From IMG/VR virus record IMGVR_UViG_3300008120_000036: a stretch of 20,000 bases of DNA. The stretch is one strand, 5' to 3'. The notes beneath the pieces were generated by a model. That model was not told the origin of the DNA and ran no database searches. It saw nothing but the letters and a program-made list of their open reading frames with translations. Below, one piece after another: positions 4,023 through 10,596 of the stretch; position 1 is the stretch's first letter; each line of letters opens with the position of its first letter. The position numbers were made by a program, and so were the translations under genes. Source of the DNA: an uncultured virus (IMG/VR IMGVR_UViG_3300008120_000036). Taxonomy: Duplodnaviria > Heunggongvirae > Uroviricota > Caudoviricetes.

Positions 4023-6716
4023 TTATTTACTTTCTATTAGAGATTTGAATGCGCCAGCACCATCTAACTTTGCCAGCACACCATTGAGTTTTTTATCTTT
4101 TAGATATGTCTTTCCACCAGTAACAGCGCGTGGGTCACATTTTGTAATCAAGTCTGCAATGGAATCGTATGGAGCATTTGATGCAATTGAATCTGCTGCG
4201 GATACTCCAACACCCTTGATTGAAACTAGACCACGCCTAATCGCTTTGTATTTACGGTCAAGTGTCCATGATGCTCCACTAATGTTTACATCAGGTGGCA
4301 ATATGCGTATTCCCATTCTTCGGGCTTCTCTCACATATAACGCTTCCTTATCTGAACCAGCCCATGACTGCAATAACGCTGTCATAAACTCCAGTGGATA
4401 GTGTGCTTTCAAATATGCACACCGATATGAACGCAATCCATAACCAGTAGCATGAGCACGATTGAATCCGTATGAAACGAATCCTGCTGTTGAATCCCAT
4501 GCTTTCTGAATATCTTTACTAGCAATACCAGCACTTAAACAGAGTTCACCAAATTCTTTACGAACTTTTAGTAAACGCTTTTCATTTGCATCAACTGCTC
4601 CTGCACCCGAAGATTTAACAATCTTGAAGAATATATTTACGCCATCAATACCCATTCCAAGACCTCTCATAATATTGATAACTTGTTCTTGGAATATAAC
4701 TGCGCCATAAGTATCCTTCAACGCTTTTTCAAATGCATCATGGATATATTTCACTCTTGCACGCGCATCAGGATTTCTACGGCGTTCAAGATATAACTCA
4801 GTTTGTCCAGTGTTCATTGCACCTGGCATAAAGAGTCCAGTTGCTAACACTGCATCCTTTGTTGTTTTAATTCCCATGCTTTTTCCACCTTTGGCTTTTG
4901 TATAACCTTCAAAATGGAATATGCCATTATCAGTTCTGCCCTCTCTAAGAATCTTGCACGCTGCTGCATCATCTTCAGGAATCCAAGAAAAGTCTGTTGG
5001 GTTTTCTCTCCCAATCATGGCTTGGCAATTACGCATTACTGTTAATGTTGTTTGACCTAAGATATCCAGTTTTAGATATCCCAACTTCTCCACATCATCC
5101 ATATCAAATTGACTTACTTCAGTATTAGAAGATGCAACGAGCATTTTTGGTACATAGGATTCAATCTTTTGTTCACTGCCACTAATCAAGACACCACCAG
5201 CATGAACACCATATGAGCGCAATACACCACCCATTTCTGCAATGCGAACTAATCCTTTGTAATCTTTTGGATTAAGTTTTTTCACATCCTCAATGGTTTG
5301 AATATTGGCATACATCTTGGCGCGTTCATCTTTGTCGGTGACTTGCTTACTTAGATAAGACTTGTAAGAAACCATGACAGAGCCTTTACCATCTTCACGC
5401 GAACCTAACTTTGCCCATGTGCCGATACGAAGAGTGTCAAATGTTCTTTCAAGATATCCCACTAATCGTTCACGCGATATATCTTCAATATCCATATCAA
5501 TATCAGGCGGTGTAACTCTGTCGCGTGATAAGAAACGGTCAAATAACAATCCCCATCTAACAGGGTCAACCTGAGTAATACCTAGCAAGTAGCAGACTAG
5601 TGAACCATTCGCTGAACCACGCGCTTCAATACATATCTGCTTTTCATTACACCACTGCACATAGTTATAGACGAGCATAAAATAGCCAGCCATTCCTAAG
5701 TCGCGGATGATATCTAATTCATATGAAAGGCGTTCTTCATATTGATTACGATTACGAACTTGCATATCGGCGAGCGCATCAAGACATAACTGCTCAACTT
5801 CTTTTTGTGGATTCTTTACCAATGCAGGAATTTGAGCCTTGTACTTATCTAATGCAGGTATGGATAACTTATTTAGATTTAATAAATGTAATGCGCCTTC
5901 TTCTGCACGATTCCATACTGCATCTTCATAATGGTCTGCAACCCACTCAGTTGTCGCAACATGAAATGAATCTCCTGGAAATTCATCCTCTGCACCACCA
6001 TAAACCATACGCTTCATCAATGCATGAGCGTGTTTATCTGATTCATGTAAGTAATGGCTATCTTGCGTAACCATAATCGGCAGACCTGTTGTATCCGCAA
6101 TTGATACTAGAGCATTCACAATGTCATCATCAGTTTGTGGATGCGCTTCATTATCTTGGTCATGACATATTGAGTGATTCTGTATTTCTACGAATGTGTG
6201 TGGAAACCATTTGGCATACATCTTTACGAGATTTTCTGCCTTCTTGATTCCATCAGTAACTAAACCTTGTTGCACTAGACCGAAATAGCAACCAGTAAGG
6301 AGTGCTATGTCATCACCTGCCAAATCAGATAATTCTGCTAAGTCAGTTAATTGCAACCTAGGGAATCGGTTAAACCTCGGTCTAGTGTGGCTTGTACTTA
6401 CGGCTTTAATCAACGCTTGATATCCATTGAAGTTAAGAGCGTGTAATCCAACATGGTAACGCTTTGCATTCTTATCTTCTAGATTTGCGCGTGGGTCAAG
6501 AATGTATGCCTCCACACCAGTAAACGGAACTATCCCATGCTTCTTTGCATTTAGATATAACTGCACTGCACTTGCCATATTGCCATGTTCAGTTAATCCG
6601 AGTGCTGGCTGTCCTTCCTTGGCAACTTTTTCAACCATATCTGCAACAGGTGACATTCCATCTAGCACTGAGAATGCTGAGTGTGTATGTGCTGACCACC
6701 AATTTGATTTCTTCAT
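4023..6716 (-). CDS. dnaE: DNA polymerase III alpha subunit (phage DnaE)
   Basis: PHP motifs HTHS-x-FS-x-LDG, TEHGNM, DSHY; RGSA, FDRFL, PDIDMD, HAGGV, KLDILG, FQEQV, YGFNRAHA, YLKAHYP; HhH GLVSIKGVG. Confidence 0.96.
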   Translation of the reverse strand: MKKSNWWSAHTHSAFSVLDGMSPVADMVEKVAKEGQPALGLTEHGNMASAVQLYLNAKKHGIVPFTGVEAYILDPRANLEDKNAKRYHVGLHALNFNGYQALIKAVSTSHTRPRFNRFPRLQLTDLAELSDLAGDDIALLTGCYFGLVQQGLVTDGIKKAENLVKMYAKWFPHTFVEIQNHSICHDQDNEAHPQTDDDIVNALVSIADTTGLPIMVTQDSHYLHESDKHAHALMKRMVYGGAEDEFPGDSFHVATTEWVADHYEDAVWNRAEEGALHLLNLNKLSIPALDKYKAQIPALVKNPQKEVEQLCLDALADMQVRNRNQYEERLSYELDIIRDLGMAGYFMLVYNYVQWCNEKQICIEARGSANGSLVCYLLGITQVDPVRWGLLFDRFLSRDRVTPPDIDMDIEDISRERLVGYLERTFDTLRIGTWAKLGSREDGKGSVMVSYKSYLSKQVTDKDERAKMYANIQTIEDVKKLNPKDYKGLVRIAEMGGVLRSYGVHAGGVLISGSEQKIESYVPKMLVASSNTEVSQFDMDDVEKLGYLKLDILGQTTLTVMRNCQAMIGRENPTDFSWIPEDDAAACKILREGRTDNGIFHFEGYTKAKGGKSMGIKTTKDAVLATGLFMPGAMNTGQTELYLERRRNPDARARVKYIHDAFEKALKDTYGAVIFQEQVINIMRGLGMGIDGVNIFFKIVKSSGAGAVDANEKRLLKVRKEFGELCLSAGIASKDIQKAWDSTAGFVSYGFNRAHATGYGLRSYRCAYLKAHYPLEFMTALLQSWAGSDKEALYVREARRMGIRILPPDVNISGASWTLDRKYKAIRRGLVSIKGVGVSAADSIASNAPYDSIADLITKCDPRAVTGGKTYLKDKKLNGVLAKLDGAGAFKSLIESK

Positions 6717-7153
6717 TTCACCACCTCATCTTCTTCATAAGGTCTTTGTACTGCACCAACATAATCGGCAACACTATCAACCTTCCTACCTTCTTTCCAA
6801 GTAAATGGAGTGCTCTGTCCTTCAGGCAATATCCATAAGTGATATTGATTAGCACCATCAACTAGTGAACTTTCAGGAGGAAAGATTTCTAAACCTTCTC
6901 TTTCCGCACCTGCTAATTCATTTTTGATTCTTTGAAAGTGTCGCCAATCTCTAATTGCTTTCCTGTCATTACGGCGAATTGATAACCATAATGCGCCAGT
7001 GAGTCCAACATCAGGTTGCAGTACTTTGAGTAACACATGAAACAATCCATTTGCATAAAGTGTTTCATTTTCATCAAGTGGCTGTTCTTCACCAGTTACG
7101 GAGTTGAACGCCTCTTTTGTTTCAGTCCACTTTGTCCATTGTGGGTTTGGCAT
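6713..7153 (-). CDS. Conserved hypothetical phage protein
   Basis: WLSIRR-x-D...DWRHFQRIKNEL...E-x-FP-x-ES-x-LVD-x-ANQYHLW, a pattern I recall from phage proteins; strong RBS AAGGAGG. Confidence 0.8.
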   Translation of the reverse strand: MPNPQWTKWTETKEAFNSVTGEEQPLDENETLYANGLFHVLLKVLQPDVGLTGALWLSIRRNDRKAIRDWRHFQRIKNELAGAEREGLEIFPPESSLVDGANQYHLWILPEGQSTPFTWKEGRKVDSVADYVGAVQRPYEEDEVVK

Positions 7154-7179
7154 ATATAACCTCCTTGGTTATTTGTTGA

Positions 7180-8040
7180 TTATGGTTTTGTATATGAAAC
7201 GGTGCATCCAAGATTCCTGCTTGTCTGCGTTCCTCCGTTATATGTGTATTCAGTTCTGCATAATGCATCACCCGAAATACTTTCAACAACATAGTTCCAA
7301 CTCTTACCGCCGACACATCCTGCATCAGCATCACCTACACCACCTGCAACTACTCCACCATCTGTAGGACAAGCACTACCTCTTGCACTTGGTGCTGTTA
7401 TCTGTGGCGCAATAACTTGTGGCACAAAAACAGGCTCAGGTGTCGGTGTTGGAGTAGGTGTCGGTGTAGGCGTTGGGGTCGGTTCAGGGGTCGGGGTACT
7501 GGTCGGGGCAGGGGTTGGGCTAGATTCAGCCTGCCCATTTAAGGGGCTGGNNNNNNNNNNNNNNNNNNNNNNNNNNNNNNNNNNNNNNNNNNNNNNNNNN
7601 NNNNNNNNNNNNNNNNNNNNNNNNNNNNNNNNNNNNGGGCTATTAGACGGACTTTCAGGGGTGGGGGTAGGTGTAGGGGTGGGGTCAAGCGTGGGGCTAG
7701 GGGTCGCTGTAGGGGTAGGGGTAGGGGTCGGTTCAGTCTGAGTACTTGCAGTTGAAGTATCTGATTCAGTCACGCTAGTTGAAGTATCACTCAGTGATGC
7801 TGTCACTGTACTTGTATCTGATGTTGTGAGTAGCGTTGAAGTTTGACTTTCAAATATCAATACGCGGTCTTCAACAAATGGTTCTTCCTCTAACATTGTT
7901 TCTTCAACTGGAATTGGTTCACCAAAAATATCTGTGTCAGCAAATATTCCTGTTGAGTACATGATGATTGATTGTGCTGGTGTTGGCGCGATAAATAAAA
8001 GTACTACAAACGCTAACACGAATTTAACTTTTCGTTTCAT
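7180..8040 (-). CDS. Secreted/surface Ser-Thr-Pro-rich protein with PT repeats and a small Cys-containing C-terminal domain
   Basis: Signal peptide MKRKVKFVLAFVVLLFIAPTPAQS; GGAG RBS before ATG 8040; frame across the N gap (7551-7636) unverified. Confidence 0.7.
   Translation of the reverse strand: MKRKVKFVLAFVVLLFIAPTPAQSIIMYSTGIFADTDIFGEPIPVEETMLEEEPFVEDRVLIFESQTSTLLTTSDTSTVTASLSDTSTSVTESDTSTASTQTEPTPTPTPTATPSPTLDPTPTPTPTPESPSNSXXXXXXXXXXXXXXXXXXXXXXXXXXXXXXSPLNGQAESSPTPAPTSTPTPEPTPTPTPTPTPTPTPEPVFVPQVIAPQITAPSARGSACPTDGGVVAGGVGDADAGCVGGKSWNYVVESISGDALCRTEYTYNGGTQTSRNLGCTVSYTKP
7434..7740 (-). repeat. Pro-Thr coding tandem repeats flanking an assembly gap
   Basis: Degenerate 6-nt repeats (ggggta/ggtgtc) on both sides of an 86-N gap. 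Confidence 0.8.
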
Positions 8041-8149
8041 TATTATCTCCATCTTCTTGTGGGTCTTGTGATTCTTCATATATCTTTATTAAGTCATCAA
8101 GCATTGGCTTAGGTGTTTCAAATGGCAATTCATCTTGTATCACCATCAT
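8024..8149 (-). CDS. Small acidic hypothetical protein (41 aa, not in ORF track)
   Basis: ATG overlaps the upstream TGA; MMVIQDELPFETPKPMLDDLIKIYEESQDPQEDGDNNETKS. Confidence 0.5.
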   Translation of the reverse strand: MMVIQDELPFETPKPMLDDLIKIYEESQDPQEDGDNNETKS

Positions 8150-8367
8150 GATGCACGCACCGAGCATTCAAGGCAGGTATATCCGTAAAGATTGTTTGCA
8201 TACAACTGTACGAACATATCTGTTCTGTTATAGAGGTATCCGCATTCATGACAGAACTTTTGATTATGATTCTGTAAATAGGAAGTTATTTGCGAGCGCG
8301 AAAGTGAATCTACATGAACACGCTTTTTTGTTTTGATTACATTCCATATATTAATTTCTTCATCCAT
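8146..8367 (-). CDS. Small zinc-finger-like protein
   Basis: CHEC...CLEC; AAGGAG RBS. Confidence 0.7.
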   Translation of the reverse strand: MDEEINIWNVIKTKKRVHVDSLSRSQITSYLQNHNQKFCHECGYLYNRTDMFVQLYANNLYGYTCLECSVRAS

Positions 8368-8402
8368 GATTGCTCCTTAATTTATATTTATGTTATTAAA
8401 GT

Positions 8403-8454
8403 GAACAGTTCCGCACTAGACCAAGGAGGTGTATTTACTAGTACGGAACTGCTC
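8403..8454 (-). ncRNA. 17-bp hairpin with an anti-Shine-Dalgarno loop (candidate antisense sRNA domain)
   Basis: GAGCAGUUCCGUACUAG / CUAGUGCGGAACUGUUC; both non-WC pairs are G-U on the minus strand; loop UAAAUACACCUCCUUGGU. Confidence 0.6.
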
Positions 8455-8459
8455 TATAT

Positions 8460-8688
8460 ACCGTGTTCGCAGTTGGCGGTAAAACCCAACTAAGAAGTGA
8501 CACAGCCCCAATACTCCATATCGTCTTTTTTACTATATGAACAGGAAGGGATTGAACCATCCACATAGCAATGGAGTAGTTGTGTCCTGCGAAGTGATGA
8601 ATGACTACTGGCTACAACACAATGGGGTTTGTGGAGCGAACTTGTAGTCCTCACCACACTTAACCTAACCATGACGGATAGTTAGGTG
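8460..8688 (-). ncRNA. Candidate multi-helix structured RNA with a T-loop and possible pseudoknot
   Basis: Nested helices found by eye (see findings); no credible ORF. Confidence 0.55.
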
Positions 8689-8690
8689 TC

Positions 8691-9734
8691 CTAGAACGGT
8701 GCTTCCTCTTCATCCTCTTCGTCAACAGATGCCACATCAAGAATCATTTCAATAATGTCATCTTTAGATGCGCCAGCCTTAACTTTGAGTTCATAGTCAG
8801 CAGCGATTTCTTTGATTTCTTTCATAGACATTTTGCGTAGTTCGTCTTCATCAAGGACAACAGTTTCATACTCGCCATCCTCAGAATCAGAATCGTCTTC
8901 CTCAGACTCATCATCCTCATCATCATCAGAACTACTACCAGTTGCAAGCACCTCGTCATCCTCATCATCATCTTCAGCATCACCGAGAATCAGATTGATA
9001 AGGTCATCACTATCTAGACCTTTTGTTGTATGACCAAGTTCGCGTGCAATAACTTTCAGTTCAGCGAGTGACTTCTCTTCCAAGTCATCACGGCTGTATT
9101 CTGCATCAGAATCAGAGTCGTCATCCTCGTCTTCGTCTTCGTCATCATCCACTTTTGATTTTGGTGTTGACTTAATTGACTTACGAGCCACTGGCTTTTC
9201 GTCTTCCTCGTCTTCGTCATCATCATCAGAATTGACTGGCACATCTTCCAATTGAGATTCTAGTAATCCCATAAGGTCTAGCAAGTCATAGCGTTCCAAG
9301 TTCATCTTGGTTGGAGGTTCAGGTGTTACATCATATTCAGTATCAAGTCCTGCTCCTGAACGCGATAATTCATAATCACGGTCTAGCAAGGTTGCATACT
9401 TGTCATACTTCTTTAACAGAGATGCAGCAACAGACTTTGGCATTACTAATGGAACAACCCTGCTTTCCGCAACATCTAATGCGTTAGCGAGATATCTTGC
9501 AGCAGGTCTTTCTTGTGTTTGCACGCCCTCTACAGAGGGAAAGAAACGCTTTTGTTCTGCATCATAATATTCAAAGTAAGCAATCCATTCAGTTGGTTCA
9601 GTAAGAAAACGAACGGTCAGTGAGCCGTCAGATGGAATTCTTGTTAGATAACTTCCACTGCCACCGCCTTTCTTTACAGATGACCTTAGTGAATTAATGC
9701 TTGTTACTTTTCCACCTCGGATTTGTTTTGGCAC
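8691..9734 (-). CDS. Probable single-stranded DNA-binding protein (gp32-like) with an acidic C-terminal half
   Basis: LTVRFL and G-x-GLDTEYDV motifs typical of phage SSBs; two Rho-N-like helical repeats; acidic tail ending EEAPF. Confidence 0.72.
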   Translation of the reverse strand: MPKQIRGGKVTSINSLRSSVKKGGGSGSYLTRIPSDGSLTVRFLTEPTEWIAYFEYYDAEQKRFFPSVEGVQTQERPAARYLANALDVAESRVVPLVMPKSVAASLLKKYDKYATLLDRDYELSRSGAGLDTEYDVTPEPPTKMNLERYDLLDLMGLLESQLEDVPVNSDDDDEDEEDEKPVARKSIKSTPKSKVDDDEDEDEDDDSDSDAEYSRDDLEEKSLAELKVIARELGHTTKGLDSDDLINLILGDAEDDDEDDEVLATGSSSDDDEDDESEEDDSDSEDGEYETVVLDEDELRKMSMKEIKEIAADYELKVKAGASKDDIIEMILDVASVDEEDEEEAPF

Positions 9735-9824
9735 GATTAACCACCTTCTTGTTGATATAGCATTAAGGGATTTCCTTAATTACTAGATGAGAACTCATAG
9801 TTTGAATTTCACCTTGGTGTTATT

Positions 9825-9853
9825 AACCTATTACATGATTTTTTAAGGTGCAA
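9825..9853 (-). promoter_or_regulatory. Putative promoter TTGCAC-N17-TAGGTT
   Basis: Same CTTGCACC -35 context as the promoter at 19964-19992; lies just downstream of a terminator. Confidence 0.5.
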
Positions 9854-9868
9854 GTTCCTTTACATATC

Positions 9869-9927
9869 TGCATAGGTGTAATTATTAATTTGCATAGGTG
9901 CATATTTAATTTATTTATGCACTGGTG
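9869..9927. repeat. Direct repeats TGCATAGGTG x2 plus TGCACTGGTG in AT-rich DNA
   Basis: Copies at 9869-9878, 9891-9900 and 9918-9927. Confidence 0.6.
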
Positions 9928-9935
9928 AATAAATG

Positions 9936-9981
9936 AAAAAGTGACAGTAATGTTTGTCGCGGAAACACTACTGCCACTCTT
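9936..9981 (-). terminator. Intrinsic terminator
   Basis: AGUGGCAGUAGUGUUU-CCGCGAC-AAACAUUACUGUCACU followed by a U-run, just after the stop at 9997. Confidence 0.75.
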
Positions 9982-9996
9982 CCCTATATTCAGTTT

Positions 9997-10596
9997 TTAA
10001 TTATCCACCTTGTAATCAGATGGATACTTTTTGAGCCACTTGTAAAACGCAGGCTCGTTTACTCCGCCATTGTACGCCTCAGAACCAATATCCCAAGACG
10101 ACCAATCACTTCCCCCATTTGTCATGTGGAAAACAATCTCGGCGTTAGTTACTGGGTCAAACAATTGCTTATTTGAATCCAGTCCGAATTTGGCTCGCCT
10201 ATCTTCACCTAATGTTCCAATCATGTTGATTTGGAATATGCCATAGGAGTTATCTCCAGTGTTTATATTGTCATTATGTGCCAATGGGCGACCATTTGAT
10301 TCACGCTTTACAACTGCCCATGCAGTCTTCAGAGATTTACCCTGAAAACCTACCGAATGTAGTAAATCTACCAATTCAGTATCAGTGAGTTGTTCTTTAG
10401 CGTTACGGAATTCTGCGACTGTAGGTTTATCTGTTGCAAACAGATAGTTAACTGTTTTAGCAGGTAACTCTACGGTGAACTCCTTAATCGTTGGTGCTTC
10501 TGCTCTCGCAACCGTACCAACGCTTGTTGCTAGTACTGTGACTAGCGAATAGGTGACAACTATGGCTTTTGTCAACCTTTGGGGATTACTTAACAT
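9997..10596 (-). CDS. Secreted lysozyme-like / lytic transglycosylase (SLT-type) protein
   Basis: N-terminal signal peptide (ARA cleavage), AWAVVKRES (catalytic Glu), DNSYGIFQIN, LFDPVTNA, W-x2-W. Confidence 0.82.
   Translation of the reverse strand: MLSNPQRLTKAIVVTYSLVTVLATSVGTVARAEAPTIKEFTVELPAKTVNYLFATDKPTVAEFRNAKEQLTDTELVDLLHSVGFQGKSLKTAWAVVKRESNGRPLAHNDNINTGDNSYGIFQINMIGTLGEDRRAKFGLDSNKQLFDPVTNAEIVFHMTNGGSDWSSWDIGSEAYNGGVNEPAFYKWLKKYPSDYKVDN

What the first reader, a model, noticed from the sequence alone, without database searches (positions are those of the whole stretch)
8460..8688. About 230-nt structured RNA with a tRNA-like T-loop and potential pseudoknot after the SSB gene
Seen on the minus strand: hairpin ACCUAACUAU/AUGGUUAGGU (8663-8687); GACUAC/GUAGUC enclosing CACAA-ACCCCA-UUGUG; UUCGCAG/CUGCGAA (8587-93 with 8466-72) closing a long arm of GACACA/UGUGUC, UACUCCAU/AUGGAGUA and UGCUAUGUG/CAUAUAGUA, capped by GG-UUCAAUC-CC (T-loop consensus, 8550-56). 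The CCCCA loop is complementary to an unpaired UGGGG (8506-10) in that arm. Alternative pairings exist (CUACAA/UUGUAG, GUUCGC/GCGAAC). It is not a cloverleaf and matches no riboswitch I recognise. Inference: a novel ncRNA, ribozyme or switch, possibly releasing or controlling the adjacent anti-SD hairpin.
Basis: partly seen in the sequence, partly recalled or inferred. Interest (0 to 1): 0.72.

Follow-up and report, generated by a model that had tools for sequence, protein, structure and literature searches.

The report
New pseudoknotted phage RNA family
The flagged stretch is a real, expressed, highly folded RNA of a freshwater phage, and its core belongs to a so far uncatalogued family of pseudoknotted RNA elements found once per genome in many uncultured phages, whose job is still unknown.

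Summary
The 323-nt intergenic region (8368-8690) folds far better than shuffles (z -6.9; plus strand of the finding -1.3).

The core, 8459-8593, belongs to an RNA family I assembled here. It has a three-way junction (P1, variable P2, P3) plus an H-type pseudoknot, between the P3 loop and the sequence 2 nt after P1.

A 21-base signature taken from the window found 38 viral contigs. A model built without the window hits it once (43.5 bits, E 1.8e-9). On 32 distinct sequences, 92.9% of cells pair (slid controls 36-45%), and the pseudoknot's three free pairs covary.

No Rfam 15 family, tRNA or tmRNA matches. The 60-aa ORF is not conserved. The T-loop is not supported by the one relative available. 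CCCCA/UGGGG is conserved but does not covary.

All four RNA libraries laid hold one exact 204-237-nt contig inside this region.

Function is unknown. My best guess (0.4) is a self-contained, nuclease-resistant leader or intercistronic domain tied to expression of the next gene. Rivals are a trans-acting sRNA, a riboswitch and a ribozyme.

The parts
8663..8687 (-). H1: 10-bp hairpin (ACCUAACUAU / AUGGUUAGGU, loop CCGUC) starting 3 nt after the SSB stop codon
   Evidence: In L006 it is kept through one-sided changes (C-G to U-G, U-G to C-G) that fit only this strand as RNA.
8594..8657 (-). H2: long irregular hairpin with apical CACAA-ACCCCA-UUGUG (loop 8623-8628). It holds an inner UUCGC (8636-8640) followed by a small hairpin, which looks like a second 5' half of the family motif.
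   Evidence: Against L006 the outer stem shows two double-sided changes (A-U to U-A, C-G to A-U), read by eye from alignment A1 and the L006 fold. It is covered by the RNA-library contigs.
8459..8593 (-). Core = member of the new family (model R1). Parts: P1 5' UUCGC 8589-8593; unpaired A 8588; long P2 arm 8499-8587 (apical loop 8545-8556, UUGGGG 8506-8511); J2/3 8492-8498; P3 5' 8486-8491; P3 loop 8477-8485; P3 3' 8471-8476; P1 3' GCGAA 8466-8470; CA 8464-8465; pseudoknot 3' strand CGGUA 8459-8463, pairing with UACCG 8477-8481.
   Evidence: R1 was built without the window. Its only hit in the 20-kb window is 8451-8599 on the minus strand: 43.5 bits, E 1.8e-9, model positions 1-76 of 76, with a 77-nt insertion in the P2 loop.
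8406..8451 (-). H5: 14-bp hairpin whose 18-nt loop carries ACCUCCUU (8423-8430). This is the exact complement of the AAGGAGGU SD used by this phage's genes. It lies between the core and the next gene's ribosome-binding site.
   Evidence: It is kept in L006 with U-G to C-G, A-U to U-G and G-C to A-U changes. The X15 RNA contig reaches into its loop, to 8411.
8365..8378 (-). SD AAGGAG (8373-8378) and ATG (8365-8367) of the 73-aa Cys-rich gene (8146-8367)
   Evidence: The protein has a relative in L006 (77 aa) and in L004. It has no Pfam or PHROG family.
8691..9734 (-). Upstream gene: SSB-like protein (347 aa) with a Rho_N domain and an acidic tail ending EEAPF
   Evidence: phrog_1607 single-strand DNA-binding protein, E 4.5e-12. 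Pfam Rho_N, E 2.2e-7.

Best explanation
The finding is the main part of a roughly 300-nt structured intergenic RNA. It is transcribed with the minus-strand replication genes of an uncultured freshwater phage.

Its core (8459-8593) is a member of a previously uncatalogued family of phage RNA elements.
- A 5-bp P1 (UUCGC/GCGAA) is followed by an invariant unpaired A.
- P2 is a hypervariable arm, 17 to about 110 nt long.
- P3 is 6 bp, and its 3' strand runs straight into the P1 3' strand.
- An H-type pseudoknot joins six bases of the 9-nt P3 loop to the sequence starting 2 nt (CA) after P1.

Shown: the fold, its conservation, one locus per phage genome, and presence of the RNA in RNA libraries.

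Inferred mechanism: the domain folds on its own into a compact, closed, nuclease-resistant knot at the head of the next cistron. In most family members the SD begins 11-16 nt after the pseudoknot, behind an A/C-rich unstructured spacer. There the knot would act in cis on the stability and translation of the neighbouring message. It could do this as a physical block to exonucleases, as the docking site of a trans factor (protein or small ligand), or as both.

In this window's lineage it is embedded in a larger leader. An extra 5' hairpin (H2) may touch the P2 arm (CCCCA-UGGGG). A 3' hairpin (H5) has an anti-SD loop that can pair with the SD of the 73-aa gene.

I put about 0.95 on 'real, new, structured RNA family' and about 0.4 on this cis-acting stability/translation mechanism.
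For: Structure
- Fold z-scores are -6.94 and -3.73 on the minus strand, against -1.28 on the plus strand.
- The relative L006 (about 80% identical in this region) has z -5.98 sense and -3.47 antisense.
- L006 keeps every helix. GACACA/UGUGUC becomes AACACA/UGUGUU. The inner arm helix is replaced by an unrelated complementary pair, AUUGGAG/CUCCAAU.

Family
- The pattern TGGGTTNNNCCGCNANCNGCGNACACGG gave 38 viral contigs.
- All 38 also carry a P1 5' strand and a pseudoknot 3' strand, both lying outside the pattern.
- On 29 distinct sequences without the window, 92.1% of cells pair, against 82.6% in shuffles (0 of 500) and 35-46% when slid.
- On 32 distinct sequences with the revised structure, 92.9% pair, against 79.3% shuffled and 36-45% slid. 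P3 pairs in 98.4% of cells and the pseudoknot in 99.0%.
- The three pattern-free pseudoknot pairs show 9, 11 and 18 double-sided changes. Pair 140-160 is AU17/GC4/GU4/UA4.
- G-U alternates with G-C at 144-156 (18 against 14). This fits only the gene-sense strand as RNA.
- The window is a full-length model hit.

Distribution
- There is one locus, single or tandem, in each of 5 of 5 whole phage records of 41-127 kb and in G001. L006 and five loci carry two tandem copies.

Position
- An SD plus start codon opening 30 or more codons lies within 45 nt after the pseudoknot in 28 of 38 loci. The SD begins 11-16 nt after it.
- The genes downstream differ: 140-142-, 73-, 330-, 145-, 87- and 67-codon ORFs.
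- Sigma-70-like promoters end 5-7 nt before P1 in L077 and L086.

RNA
- Each of 4 of 4 metatranscriptome runs, from 4 studies, holds one zero-mismatch contig lying wholly inside the region: 8411-8647, 8445-8650, 8461-8670 and 8444-8647.

Precedents
- Flaviviral xrRNAs combine a three-way junction with an L3-S4 pseudoknot and block bacterial RNase J1 in vitro (PMC5760640, passages read).
- T4 gp32 represses its own mRNA through a leader pseudoknot, as stated in PMC10690425 section 2.6.
Against: - No assay of stability, binding or translation exists; the mechanism is inferred from anatomy and position.
- The family was collected with an exact pattern fixing 21 bases. Invariance of GGGUU, CCGC, GCG and ACACGG is therefore partly by construction, and more divergent members were not sampled.
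- Contexts are mixed. In 4 of 38 loci (L070, L075, L090, L091) the pseudoknot 3' strand is followed by a U-run. In L075 this is followed by a strong promoter. There the element cannot be the leader of the next gene.
- In the window the SD lies 80 nt after the pseudoknot, with H5 in between.
- The RNA contigs begin 54-77 nt upstream of P1. They are not seen to continue into the downstream gene. This does not look like simple protection of a downstream message, although uncovered parts are not evidence.
- Contigs give no strand, no ends and no level.
- The 2-nt pairing between the 5' flank and the junction that flaviviral xrRNAs need is not seen. The best candidate pairs in 62.5% of 32 sequences.
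- Only one independent relative (L005 = L006) covers H1, H2, the long P2 arm and H5.
Confidence: 0.4

Rival explanations
1. An autonomous small stable RNA 'gene'. The domain would be excised or terminated from whatever transcript carries it, much as a phage tRNA is. It would then act in trans, for example as a decoy or partner of a host or phage protein. The variable P2 arm, here with the conserved C/U-rich loop AUCCCUUCC, would be a lineage-specific add-on.
For: - One locus per genome in 5 of 5 whole records and in G001.
- It occurs in three transcript contexts: after a promoter (L077, L086), between genes, and before a U-run followed by a new promoter (L070, L075, L090, L091).
- The neighbouring genes are unrelated: transglycosylase, PD-(D/E)XK exonuclease, SNase, DUF932, SSB.
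- It is patchy across phages. It is absent at E <= 0.1 from 5 of 5 records of SSB relatives, three of them complete.
- The only exact contigs in 4 of 4 RNA runs are 204-237 nt long and lie inside the intergenic region.
Against: - The spacing to the next SD is tight and constant (11-16 nt) in 28 of 38 loci, across several different downstream genes.
- No target or partner is identifiable. GGAAGGGAU-like complements of the P2 loop are at chance level in the window, 5 found against 2.8 expected.
- No promoter or terminator is predicted for it in the window.
- Contigs cannot show ends or abundance.
Confidence: 0.25
2. A riboswitch. The junction and pseudoknot would form an aptamer for a small molecule, and ligand binding would set transcription termination or translation of the downstream gene.
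For: - The architecture is aptamer-like: a three-way junction, a pseudoknot, a hypervariable peripheral stem and tandem copies.
- It sits in a 5'-leader position in most loci.
- In L070-type loci the pseudoknot helix plus a U-run could serve as a ligand-stabilised terminator.
Against: - The downstream genes are unrelated and mostly of unknown function.
- The SD is not part of any alternative pairing that I could see, and it lies 11-16 nt beyond the fold.
- In L075 a strong promoter follows the element.
- No Rfam riboswitch class matches, even at E <= 10.
Confidence: 0.1
3. A new self-cleaving ribozyme or an RNase processing site that cuts the early polycistronic transcript between genes.
For: - It is a small pseudoknotted fold with a variable peripheral stem, in phage intergenic regions of varied context and sometimes in tandem.
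- One RNA contig (X17) ends at 8461, inside CACGG|UA, directly abutted by Illumina adapter sequence. This hints at many fragments ending there.
- Contigs of two studies stop at 8647, and one at 8650.
Against: - No known ribozyme family matches.
- The contigs of X15, X16 and X18 run uninterrupted through the whole core and past 8461.
- A cut inside a pseudoknot helix would be unusual. This point rests on general knowledge, not on a test here.
- Contig ends in de Bruijn assemblies are weak evidence of RNA ends.
Confidence: 0.08
4. One reading: a tRNA-like, Y-RNA-like or T-loop RNA whose GG-UUCAAUC-CC cap and CCCCA-UGGGG pseudoknot are the functional heart.
For: - The window's loop matches the T-loop consensus letter for letter (the consensus itself is recalled).
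- U at loop position 1, A at position 5 and a closing G-C are also present in L006.
- CCCCA and UGGGG are both unchanged in L006.
Against: - ARAGORN finds no tRNA or tmRNA. Rfam finds no Y RNA, tRNA or tmRNA.
- The stem needed under the T-loop (GGAUGG/CCUUCC) is not kept in L006. There the loop is 16 nt on a different stem.
- The whole P2 arm is dispensable in the family, reduced to a 5-bp hairpin in most members.
Confidence: 0.03
5. Not an RNA element at all: either the 60-aa ORF 8490-8672 is a gene, or the hairpins act at the DNA level, as a replication origin or as single-stranded DNA structure within the replication module.
For: - An ORF of 60 codons is open on the minus strand.
- The region lies between the SSB and DNA polymerase III alpha genes.
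Against: - Against L006 the ORF span carries indels of 2, 1, 1, 26 and 29 nt, none a multiple of three.
- Substitutions fall 23/60, 32/61 and 20/61 on codon positions 1, 2 and 3, with no third-position excess.
- The ORF has no Pfam or PHROG match.
- Folding is strand-asymmetric.
- G-U pairs alternate with G-C in the family.
- RNA libraries hold the region.
Confidence: 0.03

Closest known systems
Flaviviral exoribonuclease-resistant RNAs (xrRNA, mosquito-borne flavivirus type)
   Same: - The order of elements is the same: P1 5' strand, P2 hairpin, P3 hairpin, P1 3' strand, short linker, then a downstream strand that pairs with the P3 loop (the L3-S4 pseudoknot).
- P1 is short.
- Tandem copies occur.
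- The P3 3' strand, P1 3' strand and 2-nt linker, closed by the pseudoknot, make a ring of about 14 nt (my geometric inference).
- xrRNAs stop bacterial RNase J1 in vitro (PMC5760640, passages read).
   Different: - There is no sequence similarity and no Rfam hit.
- The 5'-end-to-junction pairing that the xrRNA fold needs is not supported.
- In two lineages transcription appears to start at P1 itself, so nothing would be left to thread through a ring.
- The RNA contigs start well upstream of P1.
- Resistance to any nuclease is untested.
T4 gene 32 mRNA translational operator (leader pseudoknot plus unstructured tract up to the RBS, bound by the phage SSB)
   Same: - A pseudoknot is followed by an unstructured A/C-rich tract and then the SD, in 28 of 38 family loci.
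- It is a phage replication-module element.
- In the window it is adjacent to an SSB-like gene.
- The precedent is stated in PMC10690425 section 2.6.
   Different: - Here the element lies downstream of the SSB gene, not in its leader.
- The neighbours are mostly not SSB genes.
- The fold is a three-way junction plus pseudoknot, not a simple 5' H-type pseudoknot (the latter is recalled).
- Protein binding is untested.
Orphan candidate structured RNAs of phages from comparative genomics (for example the 10,006 csRNAs of Fremin et al. 2023, PMC10690425; Rfam orphan motifs)
   Same: - It is a covariation-supported intergenic motif of uncultured phages with no known function.
- It often lies within about 25 nt of a start codon.
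- It was discovered in IMG/VR-type contigs.
   Different: - I could not place it in that catalogue.
- The motif string is absent from the supplementary files that could be read.
- The alignment archives (mmc4, mmc5) and three other files were unreadable, so prior listing under an anonymous number cannot be excluded.
- It is not in Rfam 15.
Processive antitermination RNAs (HK022 put, Bacillus EAR); comparison recalled, not tested
   Same: - A cis-acting structured RNA, with a pseudoknot in EAR.
- One or two copies in an operon.
- It lies between co-oriented genes and upstream of terminators.
   Different: - No sequence or Rfam similarity.
- In L070-type loci the element itself ends in the terminator-like U-run.

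Membership tests
   Window 8451-8599 minus: 43.5 bits, E 1.8e-9, model positions 1-76 of 76. It is the only hit in 20 kb on both strands at E <= 10. The near-identical record G001 scores 30.9 bits.
   Window: UUCGC 8589-8593 with GCGAA 8466-8470; A at 8588; AGUUGG 8486-8491 with CCAACU 8471-8476. In the family, P3 pairs in 98.4% of cells and 4 of its 6 pairs change on both sides.
   Window: UACCG 8477-8481 with CGGUA 8459-8463, 5 bp; the sixth position is U-U. In the family, 99.0% of cells pair and the three free pairs covary.
Flaviviral-type xrRNA | Three-way junction plus long-range L3-S4 pseudoknot | tested here: met
   The features are as described in PMC5760640.
Flaviviral-type xrRNA | Base pairing between the 5' end and the three-way junction | tested here: inconclusive
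   The best 2-bp candidate (alignment columns 4-5 with 134-133) pairs in 62.5% of 32 distinct sequences and shows no covariation signal.
Flaviviral-type xrRNA | Blocks a 5'-3' exoribonuclease | not testable with these tools
   This needs an RNase J or Xrn1 challenge of in vitro transcripts.
tRNA / tmRNA / tRNA-like (T-loop) RNA, Y RNA (YrlA) | Cloverleaf or tRNA-like domain detectable by ARAGORN or Rfam; a conserved T-arm | tested here: not met
   ARAGORN finds 0 genes in the window. Rfam finds 0 at gathering score and only four chance-level non-tRNA matches at E <= 10. The T-arm stem is not kept in L006.
Any curated riboswitch or self-cleaving ribozyme class (Rfam 15) | Match to the family covariance model | tested here: not met
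   No hit at gathering score in the window or in 13 family loci. At E <= 10 there are only miRNA, snoRNA and antisense-RNA noise matches.
T4 gp32-type translational operator | Leader pseudoknot, then an unstructured tract reaching the RBS of the regulated gene | tested here: inconclusive
   Met for 28 of 38 family loci, where the SD begins 11-16 nt after the pseudoknot behind an A/C-rich spacer. Not met in the window, where the structured hairpin H5 lies between them. SSB binding is not testable here.
Intrinsic (rho-independent) terminator | GC-rich hairpin followed directly by a U-run | tested here: not met
   No terminator-like site falls in 8368-8690 on the minus strand. Among family loci a U-run follows the pseudoknot in 4 of 38 only.
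Protein-coding gene (60-aa ORF 8490-8672) | Frame and codon-position pattern conserved in relatives; family match | tested here: not met
   Indels of 2, 1, 1, 26 and 29 nt against L006. Substitutions fall 23/60, 32/61 and 20/61 by codon position. No Pfam or PHROG hit.

The most novel reading that the evidence does not exclude
The family is a new functional RNA class of phages: a bacterial-world counterpart of viral xrRNAs. The pseudoknot-closed ring would mechanically stall a host exoribonuclease such as RNase J. That would yield a stable subgenomic RNA and shield, or time, the adjacent early message. An equally novel alternative is a new ribozyme or ligand-sensing aptamer class carried as a single mobile module by unrelated freshwater phages.
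Probability: 0.2. Interest if true: 0.85.

Novelty: new variant of a known kind. Interest (0 to 1): 0.68.

Why it matters
Structured phage RNAs with strong covariation and a pseudoknot are the pool from which new riboswitch, ribozyme and nuclease-resistant RNA classes have come.

This one has several features that make it worth bench work.
- It is small, with a core of about 76 nt.
- It is sharply defined.
- It sits at exactly one locus per genome, in phages of very different size and gene content.
- It is missing from this phage's nearer relatives, so it behaves like a mobile RNA module.
- It can be recovered from environmental RNA libraries of four studies.

Its fold has the same strand order as flaviviral xrRNAs. 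If it also blocks bacterial exonucleases, it would be, to my knowledge, the first natural phage or bacterial example of that mechanism, and a compact tool for stabilising RNAs in bacteria.

Even if it is 'only' a leader or operator, it marks a regulatory point in the early replication module of abundant uncultured freshwater phages.

Tried and rejected
Searches that found no relative or no match
- Rfam at gathering score on the window and on 13 family loci, and in E-value mode on 8300-8760 and L061 1250-1600: noise only.
- ARAGORN: nothing.
- blastn 'distant' against 50,697 deposited phage records. The window region and L061 gave no match. L075 gave one 27-nt chance match in a Klebsiella phage tail-fibre gene.
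- Exact 19-mer of the P2 loop in viral contigs: 0 hits.
- DNA polymerase III alpha N-terminus and the SSB N-terminus as single proteins in viral contigs: no relatives.
- blastn and nhmmer of the region against the distant SSB loci: nothing.
- Pattern ATCCCTTCC...TTGGGG..TGTGT: 6 hits (3 pairs of near-identical loci) with no other shared feature, judged to be chance.

Distribution checks
- R1 on 52 SSB-relative loci: no hit apart from L006.
- R1 on 5 whole records of SSB relatives: 0 of 5.
- R1 on 3 prokaryote genomes: 0 of 3.
- R1 on 151 Actinomycetota genomes: 0 of 151, with stricter filters and on a sample only.
- A relaxed pattern on 401 Actinomycetota genomes: 1 hit against 1 hit of the reversed control, so chance level.
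- No host could be named.

Other checks
- Targets for the conserved P2 loop AUCCCUUCC in the window: 5 near-complements against 2.8 expected, which is not significant.
- Promoter and terminator scan of 8000-10000: nothing on the minus strand inside the region.
- In L075 the upstream TTGACA-18-TACTTT that I saw by eye did not pass the tool's criteria.
- The 142-aa gene downstream of most family members has no PHROG or Pfam family. The protein atlas returns only unnamed viral clusters.
- Earlier notes of this scan, by place and by sequence: nothing.

Parts of 7700-9900 without cover in the RNA runs
- The SSB gene and the 73-aa gene carry no exact contig in X15-X18.
- The tool warns that this is not evidence, so I do not use it as proof that the flanks are unexpressed.
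- The short pieces at 8892-8928 and 9113-9162, with 3-7 mismatches, are low-complexity acidic-repeat matches from other organisms.

Literature
- Three full-text searches found no description of this motif.
- For PMC10690425 I read the abstract, outline and sections 2.4 and 2.6, and searched the supplements that could be read. Its alignment archives could not be read.
Full report
Context

The window is a phage replication module, and every gene examined reads on the minus strand.
- The genes are a Cas4-like exonuclease, a resolvase, a UvsX-like recombinase, a DNA methyltransferase and DNA polymerase III alpha (4023-6716).
- They continue with a DUF7694 protein, a Thr/Pro-rich protein, a 73-aa Cys-rich protein (8146-8367), an SSB-like protein (8691-9734; phrog_1607, Rho_N) and an SLT-type lysozyme.
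- The finding lies in the 323-nt gap between the SSB-like gene and the 73-aa gene.
- The window's own assembly is not held. A 44.7-kb viral record (G001) carries the region at 100% identity.
- Twenty of the 24 listed public runs hold the stretch or part of it. Fourteen are DNA metagenomes holding 0.40-0.81 of its words, and 13 of those are labelled freshwater, lake water or aquatic. Six are RNA runs holding 0.17-0.24. The runs come from 16 studies.

The observation

- The whole intergenic region folds to -110.5 kcal/mol, against -78.0 +/- 4.7 for dinucleotide shuffles (z -6.94, 0 of 100 as good).
- The finding's own span gives z -3.73 on the minus strand and -1.28 on the plus strand.

The region resolves into five units.
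- H1: 8663-8687.
- H2: 8594-8657, with apical loop ACCCCA.
- A multi-branched domain: 8459-8593.
- H5: 8406-8451, whose loop carries ACCUCCUU.
- The SD and ATG of the next gene: 8365-8378.

ACCTCCTT occurs six times in the window against 0.47 expected. Five copies are on the plus strand, where on the gene strand they read as perfect AAGGAGGU SD sequences. The single minus-strand copy is the H5 loop.

The close relative

- Searching metagenome contigs with the SSB N-terminal domain gave six loci. L005 and L006 (93% protein identity) are identical to each other in this region and about 80% identical to the window.
- L006 folds as strongly: z -5.98 sense and -3.47 antisense.
- L006 keeps every unit. 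H1 is kept through C-G to U-G and U-G to C-G changes.
- The H2 outer stem changes A-U to U-A and C-G to A-U.
- GACACA/UGUGUC becomes AACACA/UGUGUU.
- The inner arm helix ACUCCAU/AUGGAGU is replaced by the unrelated pair AUUGGAG/CUCCAAU.
- H5 changes U-G to C-G, A-U to U-G and G-C to A-U. These readings come from A1 and the two folds.
- Kept unchanged in single-stranded places are CCCCA, UUGGGG, the loop motif AUCCCUUCC, CUUCUUAG and ACCUCCUUGG.
UUCAAUC becomes UUACAUC, and the stem beneath it is not kept.

The 60-aa ORF fails as a gene.
- Against L006 its span carries indels of 2, 1, 1, 26 and 29 nt.
- Substitutions fall 23/60, 32/61 and 20/61 on codon positions 1, 2 and 3.
- It has no Pfam or PHROG family.

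The family

- L006 carries the module 'UGGGUU NNN CCGC.A.C.GCG.ACACGG' twice, and the window carries it once.
- Used as an exact degenerate pattern with 21 fixed bases, it found 38 viral contigs with GC 0.38-0.50.
- A differently built pattern of similar stringency had returned only six chance hits with no further shared features.
- The 38 hits all share features lying outside the pattern. One is an upstream strand complementary to GCGAA (mostly UUCGCA). Another is a hairpin of variable length. The third is a 3' tail complementary to the three free loop bases.
- Seven loop/tail combinations fully complementary by standard pairs occur: GUUCCG/CGGAAC, GUCCCG/CGGGAC, GCUCCG/CGGAGC, AUACCG/CGGUAU, UCCCCG/CGGGGA, GCCCCG/CGGGGC and AGUCCG/CGGAUU. 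An eighth pairs through one G-U.

Pair counts by the tool
- On 29 distinct sequences that exclude the window, 92.1% of cells pair. Shuffles give 82.6% (0 of 500 reach the observed value), and slid partners give 35-46%.
- Mutual-information scanning then showed that the base before P3 pairs with the first base after P3 (AU17, GC4, GU4, UA4). P3 is therefore 6 bp, P1 is 5 bp, and the A after UUCGC is an invariant unpaired junction base.
- With that structure on 32 distinct sequences, 92.9% of cells pair, against 79.3% shuffled and 36-45% slid. P3 pairs in 98.4% of cells and the pseudoknot in 99.0%.
- The three pattern-free pseudoknot pairs show 9, 11 and 18 double-sided changes.
- The alternation of G-U (18) with G-C (14) at one P3 pair fits only the gene-sense strand as RNA.

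Caveat: because the members were collected with an exact pattern, the invariance of GGGUU, CCGC, GCG and ACACGG is partly by construction. The covariation cited above comes only from positions the pattern left free or did not cover.

The window is a member

- A covariance model of P1, P2 and P3 (R1; 76 positions) was built without the window. It finds one place in the 20-kb window: 8451-8599 on the minus strand, at 43.5 bits and E 1.8e-9. The match is full length, with a 77-nt insertion in the P2 loop.
- L006 has two tandem copies, at 31.6 and 56.2 bits. Five other loci also have an upstream second copy with a different P3, GAGUGC/GCACUC.
- H2 contains an inner UUCGC followed by a 5-bp hairpin.

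Distribution and context

- In five whole phage records of 41-127 kb, two of them at least 95% complete, the model finds exactly one locus each, one of them a tandem pair.
- The phages closest to this one by SSB lack it. There is no hit in the 51 other SSB-relative loci (L002-L053 without L005 and L006). There is also no hit in 5 of 5 whole records, three of them complete.
- It was not found in 151 sampled Actinomycetota genomes, and it is at control level with a relaxed pattern in 401.
- It was not found in 50,697 deposited phage records at blastn sensitivity.
- The element is always intergenic and co-oriented with the flanking ORFs.
- Its neighbours are unrelated. The commonest upstream gene is a 139-aa transglycosylase and the commonest downstream gene is an unknown 142-aa gene. 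Others are a PD-(D/E)XK exonuclease, an SNase-type nuclease, DUF932 proteins, a 50-aa Cys-rich protein and, here, the SSB.
- In 28 of 38 loci an SD plus a start codon opening at least 30 codons lies within 45 nt after the pseudoknot. The SD begins 11-16 nt after it, behind an A/C-rich spacer.
- In 4 of 38 loci the pseudoknot 3' strand is followed by CUUUUUUAUU. In L075 a TTGACA-17-TATACT promoter then follows.
- In L077 and L086 a sigma-70-like promoter (10 of 12 matches) ends 5-7 nt before P1.

Expression

I laid the Logan contigs of four metatranscriptome runs, from four studies, on 7700-9900. Each run holds exactly one zero-mismatch contig, and each of those lies wholly inside the intergenic region.
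- X15: 8411-8647, 237 nt.
- X16: 8445-8650, 206 nt.
- X17: 8461-8670, followed by 21 nt of Illumina adapter abutting 8461.
- X18: 8444-8647, 204 nt.
- All other laid pieces are 30-40-nt matches to the acidic low-complexity part of the SSB gene, with 3-7 mismatches.

Contigs show presence only. They give no strand, no ends and no level, and uncovered parts are not evidence. What they do show is that RNA libraries hold H2 plus the family core as a contiguous molecule. Contigs of two studies stop at 8647 and a third at 8650, which is a weak hint of a 5' boundary near the base of H2.

What it is not

- No Rfam 15 family reaches its threshold in the window or in 13 family loci. At E <= 10 only miRNA, snoRNA and antisense-RNA noise appears.
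- ARAGORN finds no tRNA or tmRNA.
- It is not a terminator in the window.
- It is not coding.

How it may work

Several points are established. The domain is autonomous, compact and pseudoknotted, with one locus per genome. It is carried by unrelated phages and present in environmental RNA.

The strand order is P1 5', P2 hairpin, P3 hairpin, P1 3', a 2-nt linker, then a strand pairing with the P3 loop. This is the order described for flaviviral xrRNAs, which have a three-way junction plus an L3-S4 pseudoknot and which stop bacterial RNase J1 in vitro (PMC5760640, passages read).

The linker is only 2 nt long. P1 and P3 therefore cannot stack end to end while the pseudoknot is formed. The P3 3' strand, the P1 3' strand and CA must instead close into a ring of about 14 nt. 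This is my own geometric inference.

The additional pairing between the 5' end and the junction, which xrRNAs need, is not supported here. Two lineages seem to start transcription at P1 itself. I therefore claim a resemblance, not membership.

A second precedent is the T4 gene 32 operator: a pseudoknot, then an unstructured tract, then the RBS, bound by the phage SSB (as stated in PMC10690425 section 2.6). The pseudoknot, A/C-rich spacer and SD layout of 28 of 38 loci fits this. So does the SSB-like neighbour here. The gene order and most of the other neighbours do not.

I commit, at about 0.4, to a cis-acting role. In this reading, a nuclease-resistant folded domain, possibly bound by a factor, sits at the head of the next cistron and sets the stability or translation of the adjacent message. 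In this lineage H5 is added, and its anti-SD loop can pair with AAGGAG of the 73-aa gene.

The main rival (0.25) is an autonomous trans-acting small RNA. It explains the mixed contexts more naturally: after a promoter, between genes, and before a U-run plus a new promoter. Riboswitch (0.1) and ribozyme (0.08) cannot be excluded without experiments.

Novelty

Three full-text searches found no description of this motif. The large catalogue of anonymous phage csRNAs (PMC10690425) may contain it. The motif string is absent from the supplementary files that could be read. The alignment archives were unreadable, so prior anonymous listing is not excluded. It is not in Rfam 15. I rate it as a new RNA family of a known general kind, the orphan structured phage RNA, with a real chance of being a new functional class.

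Noticed in passing
window 8406-8451 (minus); L008 about 5090-5160; L013 about 1850-1890; L023 about 6745-6790: Long hairpins whose loops carry the 16S-tail-like ACCUCCUU(CC) recur just before ribosome-binding sites, after SSB-module genes, in three otherwise diverged phages. In L023 the loop is instead a CCCUUCCCUUCC run. In each case the loop complements the downstream SD (AAGGAG, GGAAGG, GGGAGG). This may be a cis anti-SD translational control in its own right.
   Followed up: partly
L061 about 1405-1465; L065, L069, L082 and L097 upstream of the motif; L081: A second recurrent structured module abuts the family motif in many loci. It is a hairpin with an internal loop built from CCAGCGUAA and AGAUGCAGG (or GCAGCGUAG) strands, and the two strands appear in either order in different lineages. 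By eye it looks like a loop-E or bulged-G type motif. It is absent from the window.
   Followed up: no
window 8636-8640 within H2: H2 contains UUCGC followed by a 5-bp hairpin (CACAA..UUGUG). This looks like a spare 5' half of the family motif, and the sequence is kept in L006. It could be a relic of a tandem copy or an alternative P1 partner for GCGAA(C) at 8465-8470.
   Followed up: partly
window about 7560-7650: A run of N (about 30 X in the translation) interrupts the Thr/Pro-rich 299-aa ORF 7180-8079. This is an assembly gap or masked stretch inside a low-complexity gene.
   Followed up: no
window 9936-9982 (minus): A strong terminator-like hairpin (20 pairs, followed by a T-run) lies between the SLT-type lysozyme gene and the SSB-like gene. 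A transcription unit may therefore end just upstream of the SSB gene.
   Followed up: no
window 8691-9734: The SSB-like protein has three parts: an N-terminal domain matching phrog_1607, long acidic low-complexity linkers with a Rho_N-like helix-hairpin, and a tail ending EEAPF. In relatives L002, L009 and L015 the corresponding region is split into two ORFs.
   Followed up: no
window, plus-strand ACCTCCTT at 7159, 13691, 17686, 18724, 19176: Five perfect AAGGAGGU Shine-Dalgarno sequences occur on the gene strand within 20 kb, against 0.47 expected 8-mers. The host evidently reads very strong SDs.
   Followed up: no
L085 about 1531-1628 in the motif's reading direction (record coordinates differ; the motif lies on the minus strand at 338-413): In this locus an extra hairpin-forming stretch of about 70 nt sits between the motif and the usual MARGNGRT gene. 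This shows that the spacer can accept insertions.
   Followed up: no
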